From UHGV virus genome UHGV-1374865: DNA of 37,134 bases; one strand, given 5' to 3'. Source of the stretch: a virus. The first letter of the stretch is position 1. Each line of letters opens with the position of its first letter. This document shows, piece by piece, positions 5,257-24,685 of this stretch. The notes under the pieces were generated by a model, which saw nothing but the letters and a program-made list of their open reading frames with translations, searched no databases and had not been told where the DNA came from. Made by a program: the position numbers and the translations under genes.

Positions 5257-5404
5257 GAGTAAAAATTGAATAAGTAGGACATTAGCACATAGAGATATGT
5301 GTTATTTTTATACCTTTTTGGTCAGTAGATGAGACCTTAAACAGTCAATTCGTGGTGGATGGTTACACACCTTAAACAACCTAAAACGAAAGGAGAACGG
5401 AAAC

Positions 5405-20800: not shown

Positions 20801-22333
20801 TTATTTCGGTACTTTCGGGTAAACGTCAATAGTGAATTCGGAGTTTTTCTGATTCTTCTTGTTCCGTTTTGTTTTGGTCAGTATAATTCTGTCAATAAGC
20901 TGTCTCAATGCGCTGTTCTTTTCTGGGACAGTCAGAGATCCCCACTCGCTTAATAAATTCTTGCATTTCGGGACGAAATTCTTCCGGTTAGTCTGTCTTG
21001 CGATTATGGTATGCAAGTCTTCCTGAGCGGTAGCGATGTTGTTCATGCAGTCTCTGATCCGCTGCTCCAACGCATTGGATCGTTCGATGAAAATCTCTTT
21101 CGTGTAAATTCCCTGCTCTAAAAAATCGAATAAGGATTCTCGCTGTTTTAAAAGAGTCTGATGCTCTGTTTCAAAATTCGTGACGATCATTTCTTTTGCA
21201 GCAATGGCAGCAGCGTCTTCCTCATGAGTGTCGGTAAATTCATACTTAACGATGTAGTCTTTCAGCCATTCAAGCAGAGCCTCTTCCAGTTCATCGATTC
21301 GGATCCCGACGGTGGAACATTCGGTATACTGGCAGATCAGCACATCATAAGGCGTTTTTGTCTGCGCTGTTTTGCGGACCATAAGTCGGCCACATTGAGA
21401 GCAGCGAACCAAACCGGCAAATAGATTCTGAATCGGTCTGTCATTTCTGACCGGAGAGGAAAAACAGCCTTTTGGCTGATTCGCACGTTTGAATAGGTCT
21501 GTGCTGATGCGTGGCGCCCATGCTGCATCAGCGAGAATGTAATCCGTGGCGTTTGGTCGGGATTTTACCACACGACCATCCTTTACGGCTCTGACCGTTT
21601 TGCGATATCCCCAGCGGACTTTTCCGATGTTGGCCGGATTTGAGATAATACCCTTGAGGGTGGAGGGGGAGAATGGCTTTCCACTCCTTGCAAGAATCCC
21701 CATGTTGGTCATGTAAGTGCAGGCTTTCTGATATCCATACTGTTTATTTCCACACAGATCATACATTAGATCAAGAACCGGCGCCTCTGTTTGGCTGGGA
21801 GTAAGAGAATAGTGTTTTCCATCCGGTGCAATGATACGTTCCCATCCATAAGGGGCAACATTGCCGACATAATAACCATCAGAACTGGAACGTTCCCTGC
21901 CACGCTGCATTCGGCGCTTGATTGTGGCGTACTCCCGGCGGCTCATAAATAAACTGAACTCAAAGTACTCATTATCATACTCATTTGCAGGATCGTAGGT
22001 TTTATTCGGTGTTACAATCCGGGTGTTGGAATAAAAAAATGCACGCTGCACACGCCCCTGATCGATCGTATCACCTCTGGCCAGACGATCTACGTCCATT
22101 ACGAGGGCACCATCCCACATACAGGCTTCTACCTCAGAGAGGACTTGCGTCATGACTGGGCGGGCATCAATACTGTCTCCGGACACAACTTCCCGGTAAA
22201 TCGCACCGATCGGAAGAGAGAGAGTCTTTGCCAACTCTAACAGGGTAGTAATGTGGCGTTCCAGAACATCAATCCCTAGCGCTTCCAGTTCGGCGTCTTT
22301 TCTTGACTTTCGTGCGTAGATAAAATAAGACAT
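20801..22333 (-). CDS. int: Large serine recombinase (phage integrase).
   Basis: N-terminal resolvase domain with catalytic Ser in FIYARKSRKD. Recombinase domain, zinc ribbon (CSQCG...CQYTEC) and coiled coil. 510 aa. Confidence 0.85.
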   Translation of the reverse strand: MSYFIYARKSRKDAELEALGIDVLERHITTLLELAKTLSLPIGAIYREVVSGDSIDARPVMTQVLSEVEACMWDGALVMDVDRLARGDTIDQGRVQRAFFYSNTRIVTPNKTYDPANEYDNEYFEFSLFMSRREYATIKRRMQRGRERSSSDGYYVGNVAPYGWERIIAPDGKHYSLTPSQTEAPVLDLMYDLCGNKQYGYQKACTYMTNMGILARSGKPFSPSTLKGIISNPANIGKVRWGYRKTVRAVKDGRVVKSRPNATDYILADAAWAPRISTDLFKRANQPKGCFSSPVRNDRPIQNLFAGLVRCSQCGRLMVRKTAQTKTPYDVLICQYTECSTVGIRIDELEEALLEWLKDYIVKYEFTDTHEEDAAAIAAKEMIVTNFETEHQTLLKQRESLFDFLEQGIYTKEIFIERSNALEQRIRDCMNNIATAQEDLHTIIARQTNRKNFVPKCKNLLSEWGSLTVPEKNSALRQLIDRIILTKTKRNKKNQKNSEFTIDVYPKVPK

Positions 22334-22512
22334 TGTATCACACTCCTATGTAATTGTATTTAAATTTGGGTACAAAAATAACAGCCAGCGTAAAACATAT
22401 GTTCCGCTTGCAAGCTGTTTCCGAAGATGATACAATATTCTTGGATTTTAATCGCATATCTTCGGATATGTAGACCGTCTCAGTGTTGGTAGCACTGGGG
22501 CGGTTTTTTATT

Positions 22513-23043
22513 TTATTGCACGGCGATTTTCTGAGTATCCTTCTTGTTGTCAAACGATATCATATCGGATGCTTCGATTGTGAGCTCAGTATCACTCTTC
22601 AATTTATATACCTGGCATACTTCAACCGTTCCACCCGGCTGCACTTCATTTATAGCGTAATTGTTCATAGAGTCGTTCTGTTCTGCCATAATTCCCATTT
22701 CACACTCGCCACCGTCCTGAAAACACTGTACGTTTGCAGCAATTCCAGCTGTTGCGTTTTCGTCCGAATTATTTGTAAAGGTATAATAGTAAAGCAGACA
22801 TTTATTTCCCTCATAATCATTCGCAAATTCATGTCGTACATATTTTACATTAAATTTTTCTGCTGTAAAATCTATGATTCCGTCATCCACTGGCTGAGCT
22901 TCTTCTTTTGGCTCTTCTTTCTGCTCTGTTGTTGCTTCTGTCGTTGTCTCGGCGTCTCTGGATGGTTCGGCATCCCCACCACATGCTGTAATGGATAATG
23001 CCATAGCTCCTACTAATAACATTGCTACAATTTTCTTTTTCAT
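22513..23043 (-). CDS. Lipoprotein (signal peptide + lipobox LSITAC). Candidate superinfection-exclusion / lysogenic conversion protein.
   Basis: MKKKIVAMLLVGAMALSITAC lipobox. AGGAGAAAAGAGG RBS. Location between int and the repressor genes. Confidence 0.7.
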   Translation of the reverse strand: MKKKIVAMLLVGAMALSITACGGDAEPSRDAETTTEATTEQKEEPKEEAQPVDDGIIDFTAEKFNVKYVRHEFANDYEGNKCLLYYYTFTNNSDENATAGIAANVQCFQDGGECEMGIMAEQNDSMNNYAINEVQPGGTVEVCQVYKLKSDTELTIEASDMISFDNKKDTQKIAVQ

Positions 23044-23136
23044 ATTTTCCTCTTTTCTCCTGTACCTCAACACCACTTTACTCTATATAAACGCCGAAGC
23101 GGTTATATCGTATTATTACCATTATTTACCTGTAGT

Positions 23137-23150
23137 TTCCAGATCTGGAA
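23137..23150. promoter_or_regulatory. Perfect 14-bp palindrome TTCCAGATCTGGAA overlapping the putative promoter of the small HTH gene. Candidate operator.
   Basis: Seen directly, ~20 bp upstream of ATG 23171, adjacent to a TATACT -10-like hexamer. Confidence 0.45.
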
Positions 23151-23170
23151 TATACTACAATAAAACCACT

Positions 23171-23368
23171 ATGAAAATACTACTCGATAAGATCATGCTT
23201 AAGAAAAATCTATCAGTCCGGCAAGTATCCATTGCGACCGGAATATCAAAATCAACGATTAACCGTATTGCAAACGGTGAAATATCACCGACAGCCGACA
23301 CGCTGGAATTGCTTGCCAAGGGCTTAAAAGTCCGAATTTCTGACCTTATCGACTCTCCATATCAATAA
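23171..23368 (+). CDS. Small XRE-family HTH protein (65 aa), Cro/C1-type. Accessory regulator or possible recombination directionality candidate.
   Basis: Classic HTH (SVRQVSIATGISKSTINRIANGE). The ORF-track N-terminal extension is antisense junk. A hairpin plus ATTTT follows the stop. Confidence 0.6.
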   Translation: MKILLDKIMLKKNLSVRQVSIATGISKSTINRIANGEISPTADTLELLAKGLKVRISDLIDSPYQ

Positions 23369-23487
23369 GTGTCCCAGATATGGGACGATTGTCCATTTTC
23401 GCGTAAGTTTCCCGATTTTAGATTGTTAACTTAATAGAGAGGTACATAAGTACCAAAAAATAACAGAACAAATGTTCGAACAAAATA

Positions 23488-23516
23488 TTGATTTTTATCC
23501 ACTGAAATAGTATTAT
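23488..23516 (+). promoter_or_regulatory. Promoter TTGATT - 17 bp - TATTAT, flanked by two TGTTCGAACA-type palindromic operator sites (~23473-82 and ~23528-39).
   Basis: Seen directly. The 10-bp palindrome TGTTCGAACA lies upstream of the -35, and a second copy (TTTCGAACATGT) lies at the transcription start region. Confidence 0.45.
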
Positions 23517-23565
23517 ATGTTCAGGGATTTCGAACATGTGTTTTTGCAGTTAGGGGGATTGCGAA

Positions 23566-23664
23566 ATGGACTACAAAAAACTTATCATCGAATTGGTCAA
23601 CAAGTCCAACAATATTGAGGTGTTGGAACTTGTGTACCGATTCTGCATAAAGCTTTTAGGCTAG
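23566..23664 (+). CDS. Orphan 32-aa peptide gene (MDYKKLIIELVNKSNNIEVLELVYRFCIKLLG) with its own promoter, strong RBS and terminator.
   Basis: AGGGGGAT SD 7 nt upstream of the ATG. A perfect terminator hairpin follows directly after the stop. The peptide has no signal sequence. Confidence 0.35.
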   Translation: MDYKKLIIELVNKSNNIEVLELVYRFCIKLLG

Positions 23665-23684
23665 GGGAAACCCTAGTCTTTTTT
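23661..23684 (+). terminator. Intrinsic terminator CTAGGG-GAAA-CCCTAG + TCTTTTTT. Overlaps the stop of the minus-strand repressor gene.
   Basis: A 6-bp perfect stem with a GNRA-like loop followed by a T-run. Confidence 0.6.
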
Positions 23685-24056
23685 AATTAAGCTCTCTGCG
23701 AGCTTTTCTAGGACATCCCATTCACTTTCATCCAGCTTTGCAAGAGCTTCTACTAATCTTTTTTTAAATGTATCATTTTCCATTATAAGATCAGCAGCAA
23801 AGTCTGTAATCAACTGGTCTCTTGTTAATTGGATAAACATTTCACCGTTTCCGGTTCTTAACCATTCTTCGTTCACATTGAACTCTTTACAAATCAACTT
23901 ATATAAGGATTCTTTTTGATCTGGGCGTTTCAAGCGATCGTATTCTATATTAACAATAACGCTTTCACTGACGCCAAGCCTTTCTCCAAAAACTCTCCTG
24001 GACATACTTAAGTCTTTTCTTAAGATTTCAATTCTTTCTCCTATATTTAATTCCAA
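23673..24056 (-). CDS. CI-like repressor (XRE HTH, 127 aa). TTG start with AAGGAGG RBS.
   Basis: N-terminal HTH (MSRRVFGERLGVSESVIVNIE). Divergent from the early operon. Its promoter overlaps a palindromic operator. Confidence 0.7.
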   Translation of the reverse strand: MELNIGERIEILRKDLSMSRRVFGERLGVSESVIVNIEYDRLKRPDQKESLYKLICKEFNVNEEWLRTGNGEMFIQLTRDQLITDFAADLIMENDTFKKRLVEALAKLDESEWDVLEKLAESLIKKD

Positions 24057-24079
24057 AAGGCTTCCTCCTTTCTGAAATC

Positions 24080-24185
24080 AGTATATCATTATTATACTTG
24101 TTAGTCAACAAGAAAAATATTTAATTTTTTTAAAAATCTTATTGACAAACAAAATAAAACGAGTTATGATTTGTTCATCAACAAG
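24080..24185. promoter_or_regulatory. Genetic switch region with two divergent promoters and two copies of an 18-bp operator. P-cI on the minus strand is TTGACT-17-TATACT. P-early on the plus strand is TTGACA-17-TATGAT (~24142-24170). The operators are TTGTTAGTCAACAAGAAA at ~24098 and TTGTTCATCAACAAGAAA at ~24170.
   Basis: Seen directly. The near-identical operators (palindromic arms CTTGTT/AACAAG) overlap the -35 of the minus-strand promoter and the -10/+1 of the plus-strand promoter. Confidence 0.55.
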
Positions 24186-24262
24186 AAAGCAACAACACAA
24201 ACCAAAACAAAAAAACGCTGACCTATCGGCATGACGGGGAAAAAGAAAGCGAGGTGAGAAAG

Positions 24263-24685
24263 ATGTGGGTTTCAAGACGATCATGGGATTGCTTGCTGTA
24301 TCGCATCAAAAAGTGTGAAGATGACATCAAAATTCAGAAGGAAAATACGGAGAATTTAATCAGGAATACTGCAAAAAAAATTCTTGAACAACCAGAAGAG
24401 TTGCGCGAAGAAATTCAGGGGGTTGAACGTATCGAAAAATATATCGATGAGTTTATAGGTCTTGACGAAGAAAATAAGGATAGAAAGATAAAAAAATTCG
24501 ATGTATTGAAATCCATTACTAGAGAGAAAGAGTTTTCTAATATGGTATTTGGCTTGATCGAAGTCAAAAAAACTCCTGAAGCATTTGCAGAACTTCTTGA
24601 AGAGGAGATGCCTGAAAAAGAGCTACCTCATTTAAAAGAAGCAGCTCTTAATGGTTATCCGTTGTTTTTCTCTGGCATGCAGTGA
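24263..24685 (+). CDS. First early-operon protein, acidic, 140 aa. No HTH recognised; Cro-position gene.
   Basis: GAGGTGAG RBS. Glu/Asp-rich, with predicted helical/coiled composition. Confidence 0.55.
   Translation: MWVSRRSWDCLLYRIKKCEDDIKIQKENTENLIRNTAKKILEQPEELREEIQGVERIEKYIDEFIGLDEENKDRKIKKFDVLKSITREKEFSNMVFGLIEVKKTPEAFAELLEEEMPEKELPHLKEAALNGYPLFFSGMQ

What the first reader, a model, noticed from the sequence alone, without database searches (positions are those of the whole stretch)
23133..23690. Second regulatory tier next to the switch: small HTH with its own palindrome, plus an orphan 32-aa peptide gene bracketed by TGTTCGAACA operators
Between the lipoprotein and the repressor there are two extra transcription units. 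The first is a 65-aa XRE HTH whose promoter overlaps the perfect palindrome TTCCAGATCTGGAA. The second is a 32-aa ORF with a strong promoter (TTGATT-17-TATTAT), an AGGGGGAT SD and a perfect terminator. Its promoter is bracketed by two copies of a different palindrome, TGTTCGAACA. That makes three distinct palindromic operator types within 1.1 kb, implying at least two or three DNA-binding specificities. The peptide has no signal peptide, so an arbitrium-like secreted signal is not supported. It could be a small anti-repressor/modulator, or the transcript could act as an RNA.
Basis: seen in the sequence. Interest (0 to 1): 0.6.

Follow-up and report, generated by a model that had tools for sequence, protein, structure and literature searches.

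The report
SOS-controlled mini antirepressor of a gut prophage
The 32-amino-acid gene is most likely a DNA-damage-triggered (LexA-controlled) mini-protein that switches off the neighbouring prophage repressor in Ruminococcus gnavus phages; this is a known kind of switch, but here it uses an unannotated peptide family that is very common in human gut bacteria.

Summary
Only one exact copy exists. The conserved units are two host LexA (SOS) boxes, GAACAAATGTTC and GAACATGTGTTT, which bracket the promoter TTGATT-17-TATTAT. The same motif sits in the lexA/LysM-gene (yneA-like by arrangement) divergent promoter region of Mediterraneibacter, the host genus.

The 32-aa ORF is a real gene. It has about 30 variants, pN/pS is about 0.17, and the exact peptide occurs on 390 contigs. 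It is predicted to be a helix-loop-helix.

In phage contexts it always lies tail-to-tail with a short HTH repressor that has no peptidase domain but has a helical C-terminal domain (CTD). In 89 of 93 peptide/repressor pairs there is a strict LexA box upstream of the peptide gene. Sixty-six loci share this promoter cassette yet carry at least four unrelated-looking peptide families. Each family pairs 1:1 with its own repressor CTD class, and pairs with several different HTH domains.

Best reading: a LexA-repressed small antirepressor that targets the repressor's oligomerisation domain. It is analogous to AimX/AimC, Sar/SroF, 186 Tum and SinI/SinR, but without arbitrium.

The 65-aa HTH is real but optional, and its perfect palindrome is not conserved even beside identical proteins. 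No binding or expression experiment was possible.

The parts
23465..23478 (.). LexA (SOS) box 1, AGAACAAATGTTCG. It ends 9 nt upstream of the -35 hexamer.
   Evidence: Core GAAC-N4-GTTC. It is the only site in the window scoring >=19/22 against CGAACATATGTTCG. All 14 of 14 columns are invariant across two diverged promoter groups, with identical spacing to the -35. The same motif lies in the Mediterraneibacter lexA promoter region.
23488..23516 (+). Promoter of the peptide gene, TTGATT-17-TATTAT.
   Evidence: Consensus scan. The -35 and -10 hexamers are retained in the diverged group G2 as TTGAAA-17-TAATAT. It resembles the host lexA promoter TTGATTTTT...TAGTATTAT.
23531..23544 (.). LexA box 2, CGAACATGTGTTTT. 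It starts 14 nt after the -10 hexamer, roughly +8 to +21 of the inferred transcript.
   Evidence: Core GAAC-N4-GTTT, the clostridial variant found at lexA, recA and ruvC of C. difficile (PMC4234289). A box is kept at the same spacing in group G2 (CGAAAGTTTGTTCG). Other lineages place a single box inside or just after the core promoter.
23552..23558 (+). Shine-Dalgarno sequence AGGGGGA, 7 nt before the ATG.
   Evidence: Read directly from the sequence. A purine-rich SD is present upstream of every family member.
23566..23664 (+). 32-aa peptide gene, MDYKKLIIELVNKSNNIEVLELVYRFCIKLLG; proposed SOS-induced antirepressor.
   Evidence: About 30 variants exist. pN/pS is about 0.17 while pS reaches 0.76. 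AF2 predicts helix 3-13, a loop, then helix 17-31, with pLDDT 83. The exact peptide is on 390 contigs, named 'hypothetical protein'. The homologue is annotated as gp44 in phage RG-TP1. It has no Pfam, PHROG or PDB match.
23658..23685 (+). Intrinsic terminator (9-bp stem, then a T-run) shared by the convergent peptide and repressor genes.
   Evidence: The hairpin spans both stop codons.
23673..24056 (-). 127-aa prophage repressor and proposed target. It has an N-terminal HTH plus a three-helix C-terminal domain, and no S24 peptidase domain.
   Evidence: Pfam finds HTH_19 only, at residues 6-72. AF2 gives the HTH (residues 1-70) pLDDT >90 and helices 79-92, 95-106 and 110-126 pLDDT 59-71. The exact protein is named as a Mediterraneibacter protein and occurs on 873 contigs. 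It is always convergent with the peptide gene, and the peptide type follows the CTD class, not the HTH type.
23171..23368 (+). 65-aa XRE-family HTH protein. It is an optional neighbour of the cassette and its function is unresolved.
   Evidence: HTH_3 E=1.9e-12. It is present in 20 of the 52 viral loci retrieved through the peptide and absent from phiRM10 and phiRg519T2. There is no SD, and a -10-like element lies directly before the ATG in all lineages, which suggests a leaderless mRNA. It occurs with both serine and tyrosine integrases.
23137..23150 (.). Perfect palindrome TTCCAGATCTGGAA in the divergent region between the lipoprotein gene and the HTH gene.
   Evidence: Exact and unique. It is not conserved: relatives have TTCCAGATTTGGAA, TTCCAGTATCGGAA, TTCCAGTTTTGGAA and TTCTATATCCTGAA next to HTH proteins that are 92-100% identical.
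23371..23386 (+). Hairpin GTCCCAGATATGGGAC immediately after the HTH stop codon.
   Evidence: The stem is conserved, with changes kept on both sides in distant lineages (GTCCGGTTTACCGGAC, GTCCGGGTACTCGGAC). It is not followed by a T-run.
23441..23454 (.). Second hairpin GGTACATAAGTACC, just upstream of LexA box 1.
   Evidence: Compensatory variants are GGCAAAAACATTGCC and AGGAAAATTTTTCCT.

Best explanation
The 32-aa ORF encodes a small helix-loop-helix antirepressor whose gene is kept silent in the lysogen by host LexA.

1. LexA dimers occupy two SOS boxes, one just upstream of the -35 hexamer and one at about +8 to +21 of the promoter TTGATT-17-TATTAT.
2. DNA damage activates RecA, LexA cleaves itself, and the promoter fires.
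3. The peptide binds the helical C-terminal oligomerisation domain of the adjacent 127-aa repressor. That repressor has no autocleavage domain and cannot sense RecA itself.
4. The resulting peptide-repressor heterocomplex cannot oligomerise on its operators, so the divergent early lytic promoter is released.

Shown here: the anatomy, the conservation, the coding constraint, the identity of the motif with the host SOS box, and the peptide/CTD co-inheritance.

Inferred: LexA binding, damage-induced transcription, and the peptide-repressor interaction.

The 65-aa HTH upstream is a frequent but dispensable neighbour. It is not the regulator that explains the boxes.
For: **LexA control**
- The boxes match GAAC-N4-GTTC/T, the B. 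subtilis and clostridial SOS box (PMC4234289).
- In a Mediterraneibacter genome, the 270-bp region between lexA and a divergent 109-aa LysM-domain gene (yneA-like by its arrangement; my reading) holds GAACTGTTGTTC and GAACACATGTTT plus two near-boxes. There is no other strict box in that 6.6-kb locus (3 matches against 0.34 expected).
- Box 1 is the longest invariant block across diverged promoters, and both box-to-hexamer spacings are preserved.
- At least six different promoter architectures all carry a box: flanking the promoter, in the spacer, or just after the -10. One promoter was separated from its gene by an IS30 insertion.
- 89 of 93 peptide/repressor pairs have a strict box within 150 nt upstream.

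**Translated gene**
- pN/pS is about 0.17 with near-saturated synonymous sites.
- An SD is present, and the exact peptide occurs on hundreds of contigs.

**Target**
- The repressor has only an HTH plus a helical CTD, with no S24 domain.
- The peptide gene always abuts the 3' end of such a repressor gene.
- 66 loci share the window-type promoter but carry at least four peptide families. Each pairs strictly with one CTD class and combines with 2-4 different HTH domains.
- The peptide family profile aligns to repressor residues 97-126, the last two helices, at P=7.9e-4. None of 200 column shuffles reached the score.

**Precedent and consistency**
- AimX is a 29-aa ORF behind a LexA site, convergent with the short repressor AimC. 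It binds the AimC CTD and blocks oligomerisation (10.1101/2025.11.23.689978).
- The relative RG-TP1 carries the same cassette. Its GenBank record gives 'antibiotic induction' as its source, and the paper describing it used mitomycin C to induce temperate phages.
Against: - There is no experimental evidence of any kind.
- Box 1 lies upstream of the -35 hexamer rather than over the core promoter, so its contribution to repression is uncertain.
- Co-inheritance of peptide and CTD could partly reflect physical adjacency. However, the equally adjacent promoter is not co-inherited.
- Pairwise peptide-versus-CTD similarity is not significant and is not highest for cognate pairs. BLASTP sees nothing.
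- Fold similarity of the repressor model to AimC (9iaq) is weak: E 0.07-0.1, TM 0.39-0.45.
- Two genome loci (L064, L066) have a peptide/repressor pair without a LexA box.
- Paralogue arrays exist in elements with no adjacent repressor, so the family may have other partners.
Confidence: 0.65

Rival explanations
1. The SOS-induced transcript acts at the RNA level. Convergent transcription or antisense pairing with the repressor mRNA lowers repressor synthesis, and the ORF is incidental.
For: The two genes are convergent with abutting or overlapping 3' ends; the overlap is 4 nt in L064, L066 and L067. The same idea was long held for aimX.
Against: The peptide is under strong purifying selection. 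A strong terminator sits between the two ORFs in the window. The peptide type tracks the repressor's protein domain. In the arbitrium analogue, recoded and stop-codon alleles led the authors to conclude that the sense-antisense RNA interaction is most likely not consequential.
Confidence: 0.08
2. The peptide is SOS-induced but targets something other than the adjacent repressor. Candidates are a host factor (division, LexA/RecA modulation as with GIL01 gp7) or a type I toxin like TisB.
For: LexA-regulated small proteins with such roles are known (general knowledge; GIL01 gp7 is). Paralogue arrays occur without a neighbouring repressor.
Against: There is no hydrophobic segment and the net charge is about +1, so it is not TisB-like (read from the sequence). 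The gene is itself LexA-repressed, unlike gp7, which acts in the lysogen. Strict synteny and 1:1 pairing with repressor CTD classes hold across 93 pairs. The profile resembles the repressor's C-terminal hairpin.
Confidence: 0.15
3. The palindromes are operators of phage-encoded DNA-binding proteins (the 65-aa HTH and/or CI), forming a second phage-internal regulatory tier over the peptide gene, as in TF-smORF modules.
For: The HTH gene lies directly upstream of the cassette in many loci; 76 loci were retrieved through it. TF-plus-small-protein modules that control induction are known (PMC10432266).
Against: The boxes equal the host SOS box. They persist in loci without the HTH, including phiRM10, phiRg519T2, L025-L040, L060 and L067. 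They also persist next to repressors with several different HTH domains. The probable CI operators have a different sequence, TTGTT-N4-AACAA, at 24098-24111 and 24171-24184. The HTH's own palindrome is not conserved.
Confidence: 0.07

Closest known systems
AimX-AimC module of 'extended arbitrium' phages (phi106, phiW23, BMBtp14; Kabel et al., bioRxiv 10.1101/2025.11.23.689978)
   Same: - The small helical ORF is 29-80 aa and is convergent with, sometimes overlapping, a short repressor.
- That repressor is 80-140 aa, is non-cleavable, and is built from an N-terminal HTH plus a helical C-terminal oligomerisation domain.
- In phi106 a LexA site lies directly upstream of the small ORF.
- Antirepressor and repressor variants co-vary.
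   Different: - There is no AimR/AimP here, so control appears to be LexA alone.
- The hosts are Lachnospiraceae (Clostridia), not Bacillus.
- No sequence similarity was detected. The fold match of the repressor model to AimC 9iaq is weak.
- Two boxes bracket the promoter.
LexA-controlled antirepressors of Gram-negative and SPbeta-like phages: 186 Tum, Gifsy-1/3 antirepressors (PMC3121763), Sar-SroF of phi3T/SPbeta (10.1101/2025.11.27.690993)
   Same: The logic is the same. A non-cleavable repressor is inactivated by an antirepressor whose gene is repressed by host LexA.
   Different: - Those proteins are unrelated to this peptide. From my own knowledge, Tum and the Gifsy antirepressors are also much larger.
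- Sar mimics DNA and binds an integrase-fold repressor.
- Here the peptide is a 32-aa helix-loop-helix that seems to target a helical CTD.
SinI-SinR of Bacillus subtilis (PDB 1b0n)
   Same: - SinR is an HTH repressor with a C-terminal helical multimerisation domain.
- It is antagonised by a small protein that resembles that domain and forms a heterodimer with it.
- SinR/SinI ranks 4th among full-length fold matches.
- The peptide profile aligns to the repressor's last two helices.
   Different: - There is no Pfam SinI match.
- The peptide is half the size of SinI.
- The setting is a phage lysis-lysogeny switch under SOS control, not a developmental circuit.
- The similarity holds at class level only and is not cognate-specific.
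TF-smORF induction modules of linear plasmid-like phages (Silpe et al. 2023, PMC10432266) and Qtip of VP882
   Same: A small protein inactivates cI, and a small regulator gene lies next to it.
   Different: - Those modules are SOS-independent and use a phage transcription factor as activator. From my own knowledge, that factor is transcribed divergently from the small-protein gene.
- Here the HTH is co-oriented and dispensable, and the promoter carries LexA boxes.

Membership tests
LexA (SOS)-controlled phage antirepressor systems | Host LexA box(es) at the antirepressor promoter | tested here: met
   GAACAAATGTTC and GAACATGTGTTT bracket the promoter. The same motif clusters at the Mediterraneibacter lexA/LysM-gene promoter region. 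It is conserved across at least six promoter architectures and in 89 of 93 pairs. This is motif-level evidence only.
LexA (SOS)-controlled phage antirepressor systems | The phage repressor lacks a RecA-dependent autocleavage (S24) domain | tested here: met
   Pfam finds HTH_19 only. The AF2 model is an HTH plus three helices.
LexA (SOS)-controlled phage antirepressor systems | The product binds and inactivates the repressor, and induction follows DNA damage | not testable with these tools
   The support is indirect. It consists of synteny and 1:1 pairing, plus the relative RG-TP1, whose GenBank record gives 'antibiotic induction' as source and whose paper used mitomycin C for temperate-phage induction.
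Extended arbitrium module (AimR-AimP-AimX-AimC-AimL) | Small helical ORF convergent with a short HTH repressor that carries a helical CTD | tested here: met
Extended arbitrium module (AimR-AimP-AimX-AimC-AimL) | AimR receptor and AimP signal peptide gene upstream of the small ORF | tested here: not met
   Upstream are a 65-aa HTH, a DUF5067 lipoprotein and a serine integrase. No larger (receptor-sized) ORF lies between the integrase gene and the peptide gene, and the peptide has no signal sequence. The cassette is therefore not a member, although it seems to work like the AimX/AimC part.
Extended arbitrium module (AimR-AimP-AimX-AimC-AimL) | Homology of the repressor to AimC | tested here: inconclusive
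   Foldseek finds 9iaq chains at ranks 37-50, with E 0.07-0.1 and TM 0.39-0.45; the match is driven mainly by the HTH. 9iaq does not appear in the sequence search.
SinI/SinR-type antagonist-repressor pair | The antagonist is similar in sequence to the repressor's C-terminal multimerisation helices | tested here: inconclusive
   hhalign aligns peptide 3-32 to repressor 97-126 at P=7.9e-4, and 0 of 200 shuffles reach the score. BLASTP is negative, and pairwise tests are not cognate-specific.
SinI/SinR-type antagonist-repressor pair | Match to the Pfam SinI domain | tested here: not met
   The peptide has no Pfam family at E<=0.1.
TF-smORF prophage induction modules | A phage transcription factor is obligatorily paired with, and controls, the small ORF | tested here: not met
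   The 65-aa HTH is co-oriented and absent from 32 of the 52 viral loci retrieved through the peptide, including phiRM10 and phiRg519T2. Its palindrome is not conserved.
LexA-regulated type I toxins (TisB/DinQ-like) | Hydrophobic membrane-spanning peptide | tested here: not met
   There are nine charged residues spread over 32 aa, and the longest uncharged run is 4 residues (read from the sequence). The model is an amphipathic helical hairpin.

The most novel reading that the evidence does not exclude
The helix-loop-helix peptides form a large, unannotated superfamily of repressor C-terminal-domain mimics. Small integrase-bearing, phage-like elements of about 17-20 kb in Blautia, Ruminococcus and other Lachnospiraceae carry tandem batteries of 3-5 divergent paralogues. 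These arrays have no LexA box and no cognate repressor next to them. They could serve to derepress resident prophages of several immunity types in trans. That would be a satellite-like strategy for triggering helper prophages, or more generally a means of cross-talk between elements.
Probability: 0.12. Interest if true: 0.8.

Novelty: new variant of a known kind. Interest (0 to 1): 0.55.

Why it matters
- **Induction mechanism.** R. gnavus (Mediterraneibacter gnavus) is an abundant, IBD-associated gut species. Its prophages, and those of many other Lachnospiraceae, have repressors without an autocleavage domain, so how they sense DNA damage was unclear. This cassette gives a concrete, testable route: LexA, then a 32-aa antirepressor, then the repressor CTD.
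- **Annotation.** A class of 'hypothetical' or uncalled small ORFs would be annotated. It suggests that induction specificity (peptide/CTD) is modular and separable from immunity specificity (HTH/operators).
- **Tools.** The cassette offers compact parts for inducible switches in gut Firmicutes.
- **Generality.** It suggests that the AimX/AimC principle recently found in Bacillus arbitrium phages also operates outside arbitrium systems and outside Bacilli.

Tried and rejected
- **Database searches on the peptide.** Pfam, PHROGs and PDB sequence searches found nothing. Rfam found nothing relevant in 22300-24300.
- A genome scan with the broad peptide alignment failed for lack of a conserved stretch.
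- **Direct peptide-repressor similarity.** BLASTP of the peptide against the repressor found no similarity. Smith-Waterman scores of peptide against cognate versus non-cognate CTDs were not cognate-specific, so I claim only class-level resemblance.
- **Repressor as an AimC homologue.** Sequence and fold evidence are too weak to file it there. The PDB hit 9sf2 (E=0.03) was not pursued.
- **65-aa HTH as a recombination directionality factor for the serine integrase.** Rejected as an association, because it occurs with both serine and tyrosine integrases.
- **65-aa HTH palindrome as a conserved operator.** Rejected.
- **Boxes as operators of the phage repressor.** Rejected, because the same boxes sit beside several different HTH domains.
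- **Structure prediction of the peptide-repressor complex.** Not possible with the single-chain tool.
Full report
**1. What is in the sequence**

The region lies in the lysogeny module of a roughly 37-kb siphovirus-like prophage or phage genome. The order of features is as follows:
- large serine integrase, 20801-22333 (-);
- DUF5067 lipoprotein, 22513-23043 (-);
- 65-aa XRE HTH, 23171-23368 (+);
- 32-aa ORF, 23566-23664 (+);
- 127-aa HTH repressor, 23673-24056 (-);
- divergent promoters at 24080-24170;
- early genes, including a Rha/KilAC Ant.

The exact repressor protein is named in NCBI as a Mediterraneibacter protein and occurs on 873 contigs. The closest sequenced phages are Ruminococcus gnavus phages RG-TP1, phiRM10 and phiRg519T2.

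The claimed pair of TGTTCGAACA sites is not present. There is one exact copy. The other site has two mismatches, and matches at <=1 mismatch occur at chance frequency.

**2. The bracketing sites are LexA boxes**

Shifting the register by a few bases turns both sites into GAAC-N4-GTTY. The first is GAACAAATGTTC (23466-23477), which ends 9 nt before the -35 hexamer. The second is GAACATGTGTTT (23532-23543), which begins 14 nt after the -10 hexamer. A third copy lies at 22393-22404, and there are no more in 37 kb.

GAAC-N4-GTTC/T is the SOS box of B. subtilis and of clostridia, found at lexA, recA, ruvC and uvrB of C. difficile (PMC4234289).

I tested this in the host genus. I retrieved a LexA protein named as Mediterraneibacter and read its locus. 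There, lexA is divergent from a 109-aa LysM-domain gene, which by its arrangement I read as yneA-like. The 270-bp intergenic region holds GAACTGTTGTTC and GAACACATGTTT plus two one-mismatch boxes. There is no other strict box in the 6.6-kb locus (3 matches against 0.34 expected).

The host lexA promoter (TTGATTTTT...TAGTATTATCATATGTT) also resembles the phage promoter (TTGATTTTT...TAGTATTATATGTT).

**3. Conservation of the boxes**

An alignment of two diverged promoter groups shows that box 1 is invariant at 14 of 14 columns. It is the longest invariant block, and both box-to-hexamer spacings are identical although the spacers have diverged.

Other lineages use different promoters, but each keeps a box:
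- just after the -10 hexamer (AAACAAATGTTCG; AGAACATACATTCT);
- inside the spacer (TTGACA-at-CGAACAAACGTTTG-a-TAAAAT; TTGACA-at-CGAACAAATGTTTG-a-TAATAT; TTGACAaaaaCGAACGTATGTTCTAAAAT).

The one apparent exception among the viral loci, L051, has the boxed promoter displaced 1.7 kb by an IS30 insertion flanked by a 15-bp duplication.

Over all fetched loci, 89 of 93 small-ORF/repressor pairs have a strict box within 150 nt upstream.

The boxes persist without the 65-aa HTH and beside several unrelated repressor HTH domains. They therefore cannot be operators of either phage protein.

**4. The ORF is a real, translated gene**

A pattern-plus-tblastn search of IMG/VR returned 52 loci with about 30 peptide variants of 30-39 aa. 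They share the pattern MDYKK-IIE-L ... L--(V/I)Y-F---L.

Among eleven distinct 32-codon alleles, mean pN/pS is 0.17. pS reaches 0.76 while amino-acid identity stays near 70-80%.

The exact peptide is in public protein sets as 'hypothetical protein' on 390 contigs. A sister variant is on at least 1,000 contigs. RG-TP1 annotates its homologue as gp44, whereas phiRM10 and phiRg519T2 leave it uncalled.

AlphaFold2 predicts helix 3-13, a loop, then helix 17-31 (pLDDT 83). The peptide has no hydrophobic segment and no signal peptide, and it matches no Pfam, PHROG or PDB family.

**5. The partner**

In every phage-context locus the peptide gene is tail-to-tail with a repressor of 114-136 aa, sharing a terminator or overlapping by 4 nt. 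The repressor consists of an XRE HTH plus a helical C-terminal domain, with no S24 peptidase.

The AF2 model gives a confident HTH (pLDDT >90) and three less confident C-terminal helices (79-92, 95-106, 110-126; pLDDT 59-71). That pattern fits a domain that needs a partner.

The repressor family is large. Named members come from Mediterraneibacter, Faecalimonas, Coprococcus and Oscillospiraceae.

The key comparative result concerns 66 loci that share the window-type LexA promoter cassette, mostly at 92-100% identity. They carry at least four dissimilar peptide families (MDYKKL..., MDYKN/SK..., MDELNILLSKL..., MDEQK...), and two more families sit at 73-75% promoter identity. Each family pairs strictly with one repressor CTD class. 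The same peptide is combined with 2-4 different N-terminal HTH domains.

So the peptide is co-inherited with the repressor's C-terminal domain. It is not co-inherited with the repressor's DNA-binding specificity, nor with its own equally adjacent promoter.

A profile of the peptide family aligns to repressor residues 97-126, the last two helices (FKKRLVEALAKLDESEW...). The P-value is 7.9e-4, and none of 200 column shuffles reached the score (21.1 against mean 9.0, maximum 18.1).

This resemblance holds at class level only. Single-sequence tests are not significant and are not highest for cognate pairs. One non-cognate case is striking: the L127 peptide against the window CTD gives z=7.3.

**6. 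Mechanism and precedent**

The most economical model is an SOS-triggered antirepressor. LexA silences the peptide gene in the lysogen. After DNA damage the peptide is made. It binds the repressor's C-terminal oligomerisation domain, perhaps taking the place of the second subunit's helices, and so abolishes cooperative operator binding.

This is what Kabel et al. (bioRxiv 10.1101/2025.11.23.689978) demonstrated for AimX/AimC in Bacillus arbitrium phages:
- AimX is a 29-aa ORF behind a LexA site, convergent with a short non-cleavable HTH repressor.
- The authors conclude that the sense-antisense RNA interaction is most likely not consequential.

Related logic is seen elsewhere:
- Sar/SroF;
- the Gifsy LexA-controlled antirepressors (PMC3121763);
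- 186 Tum (my own knowledge);
- SinI/SinR, where the antagonist resembles the repressor's C-terminal helices. SinR/SinI (1b0n) is the fourth-ranked, full-length fold match of the repressor model.

Membership in the arbitrium module fails, because there is no AimR/AimP. Homology to AimC is not established: 9iaq scores E 0.07-0.1.

One observation is consistent with SOS control. RG-TP1 carries the same two boxes and a peptide/repressor pair. Its GenBank record gives 'antibiotic induction' as its source, and the paper describing it used mitomycin C for temperate-phage induction.

I found no paper describing this cassette in Lachnospiraceae.

**7. The 65-aa HTH**

It is a genuine XRE protein, annotated in M. 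gnavus including strain ATCC 29149. It lacks an SD and has a -10-like element immediately before the ATG in all lineages, which suggests a leaderless mRNA. A conserved hairpin follows its stop codon (GTCC...GGAC), with compensatory changes between lineages.

It frequently sits just upstream of the LexA cassette; 76 loci were retrieved through it. However, it is absent from 32 of the 52 viral loci retrieved through the peptide, including phiRM10 and phiRg519T2.

Its 'own' perfect palindrome is peculiar to this variant. Proteins 92-100% identical sit beside TTCCAGATTTGGAA, TTCCAGTATCGGAA, TTCTATATCCTGAA or TTCCAATCGTTACG, and a group at 83-85% identity has an unrelated upstream sequence.

It co-occurs with both serine and tyrosine integrases. 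Its role is open. It may regulate the divergent lipoprotein gene or the moron region, or act as an auxiliary immunity factor. It does not account for the boxes.

**8. Limits**

Nothing here shows binding, transcription or induction.
- Box 1's upstream position makes its repressive role uncertain.
- Co-inheritance could owe something to linkage.
- L064 and L066 have a peptide/repressor pair without a LexA box. A 20-bp palindrome, TTTCCATATATATATGGAAA, lies upstream instead.
- Arrays of paralogues occur in elements without an adjacent repressor.

I put 0.65 on the full model. I put more on its first two steps (LexA control; translated peptide) and less on the specific CTD-binding mechanism.

**9. 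Verdict**

The finding is real and biologically meaningful, but it is a new variant of a known kind rather than something categorically new. It is a stand-alone, LexA-gated, AimX/SinI-like mini-antirepressor cassette that is widespread and unannotated in human-gut Lachnospiraceae prophages.

Noticed in passing
window 22391-22515 (+): Candidate SOS-regulated small RNA (sRNA) between the integrase and lipoprotein genes. A LexA-like box (AAAACATATGTTCC; GAAC-N4-GTTC in L007 and L020) abuts the -35 of an extended -10 promoter (TTGCAA-17-TGATACAAT). It is followed by a C(UUCG)G-capped hairpin and a strong terminator. The unit is conserved in R. gnavus-type phages with different integrases, and 3 of 11 predicted pairs show compensatory changes. 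It matches no Rfam family.
   Followed up: partly
L041-L050, L052, L055, L057-L059, L061, L068; L146 9545-10099: Tandem arrays of 3-5 divergent MDYKK-type peptide genes (33-39 aa each), located just upstream of a tyrosine integrase. The host elements are phage-like contigs of about 13-20 kb (one is 8.8 kb). In the element read in full (L146) they encode a tape-measure-like 1322-aa protein, a Rha-like protein and an Mrr-type nuclease. Hosts are Blautia, Ruminococcus and other Lachnospiraceae. There is no LexA box and no convergent repressor. The preceding 118-aa and 97-aa ORFs end in a similar helix-loop-helix motif.
   Followed up: partly
L051 1203-3000: An IS30-family transposase insertion, flanked by a 15-bp duplication (CACATAAATGCTTAC), separates the LexA-boxed promoter (TTGACA-ag-CGAACAAATGTTTG-g-TATTAT) from its peptide gene. 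This is presumably a natural 'uninducible' variant.
   Followed up: yes
window 24098-24111 and 24171-24184: Two TTGTT-N4-AACAA inverted repeats (TTGTTAGTCAACAA, TTGTTCATCAACAA) overlap the divergent promoters between the repressor gene and the early genes. They are the probable operators of the 127-aa repressor and are distinct from the LexA boxes.
   Followed up: no
window 23084-23108: Imperfect inverted repeat TATATAAACGCCGAAGCGGTTATAT upstream of the lipoprotein gene. It is conserved in RG-TP1, phiRM10 and phiRg519T2, and part of it is duplicated in phiRg519T2.
   Followed up: no
window 23371-23386 and 23441-23454: Two conserved hairpins lie between the HTH gene and LexA box 1. Stem changes are compensated across lineages, and neither hairpin has a canonical T-run. 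They might be RNA stabilisers, insulators or protein sites.
   Followed up: partly
L064 and L066, about 100-140 nt upstream of the peptide ATG at 2501: A 40-aa family member, convergent with a repressor of a different CTD type, has no LexA box. It has a 20-bp perfect palindrome, TTTCCATATATATATGGAAA, upstream instead. This hints at a non-SOS input in some lineages.
   Followed up: no
L180 2400-3618 (Mediterraneibacter genome): Host lexA is divergent from a 109-aa LysM-domain gene, yneA-like by arrangement. Four SOS boxes or near-boxes lie between them. The lexA promoter sequence resembles the phage peptide promoter.
   Followed up: partly
window 5320-5383 and 35484-35556: Rfam hits above the gathering threshold: the GP20-b RNA motif (44.9 bits) upstream of structural genes, and a tRNA gene (73.7 bits) near the right end of the window.
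   Followed up: no
proteins P0121-P0124 and P0136: The top profile hits to the repressor family are proteins of 194-218 aa. They are longer than the usual 123-136 aa and carry extra precomputed Pfam hits. They may be fused or duplicated forms.
   Followed up: no
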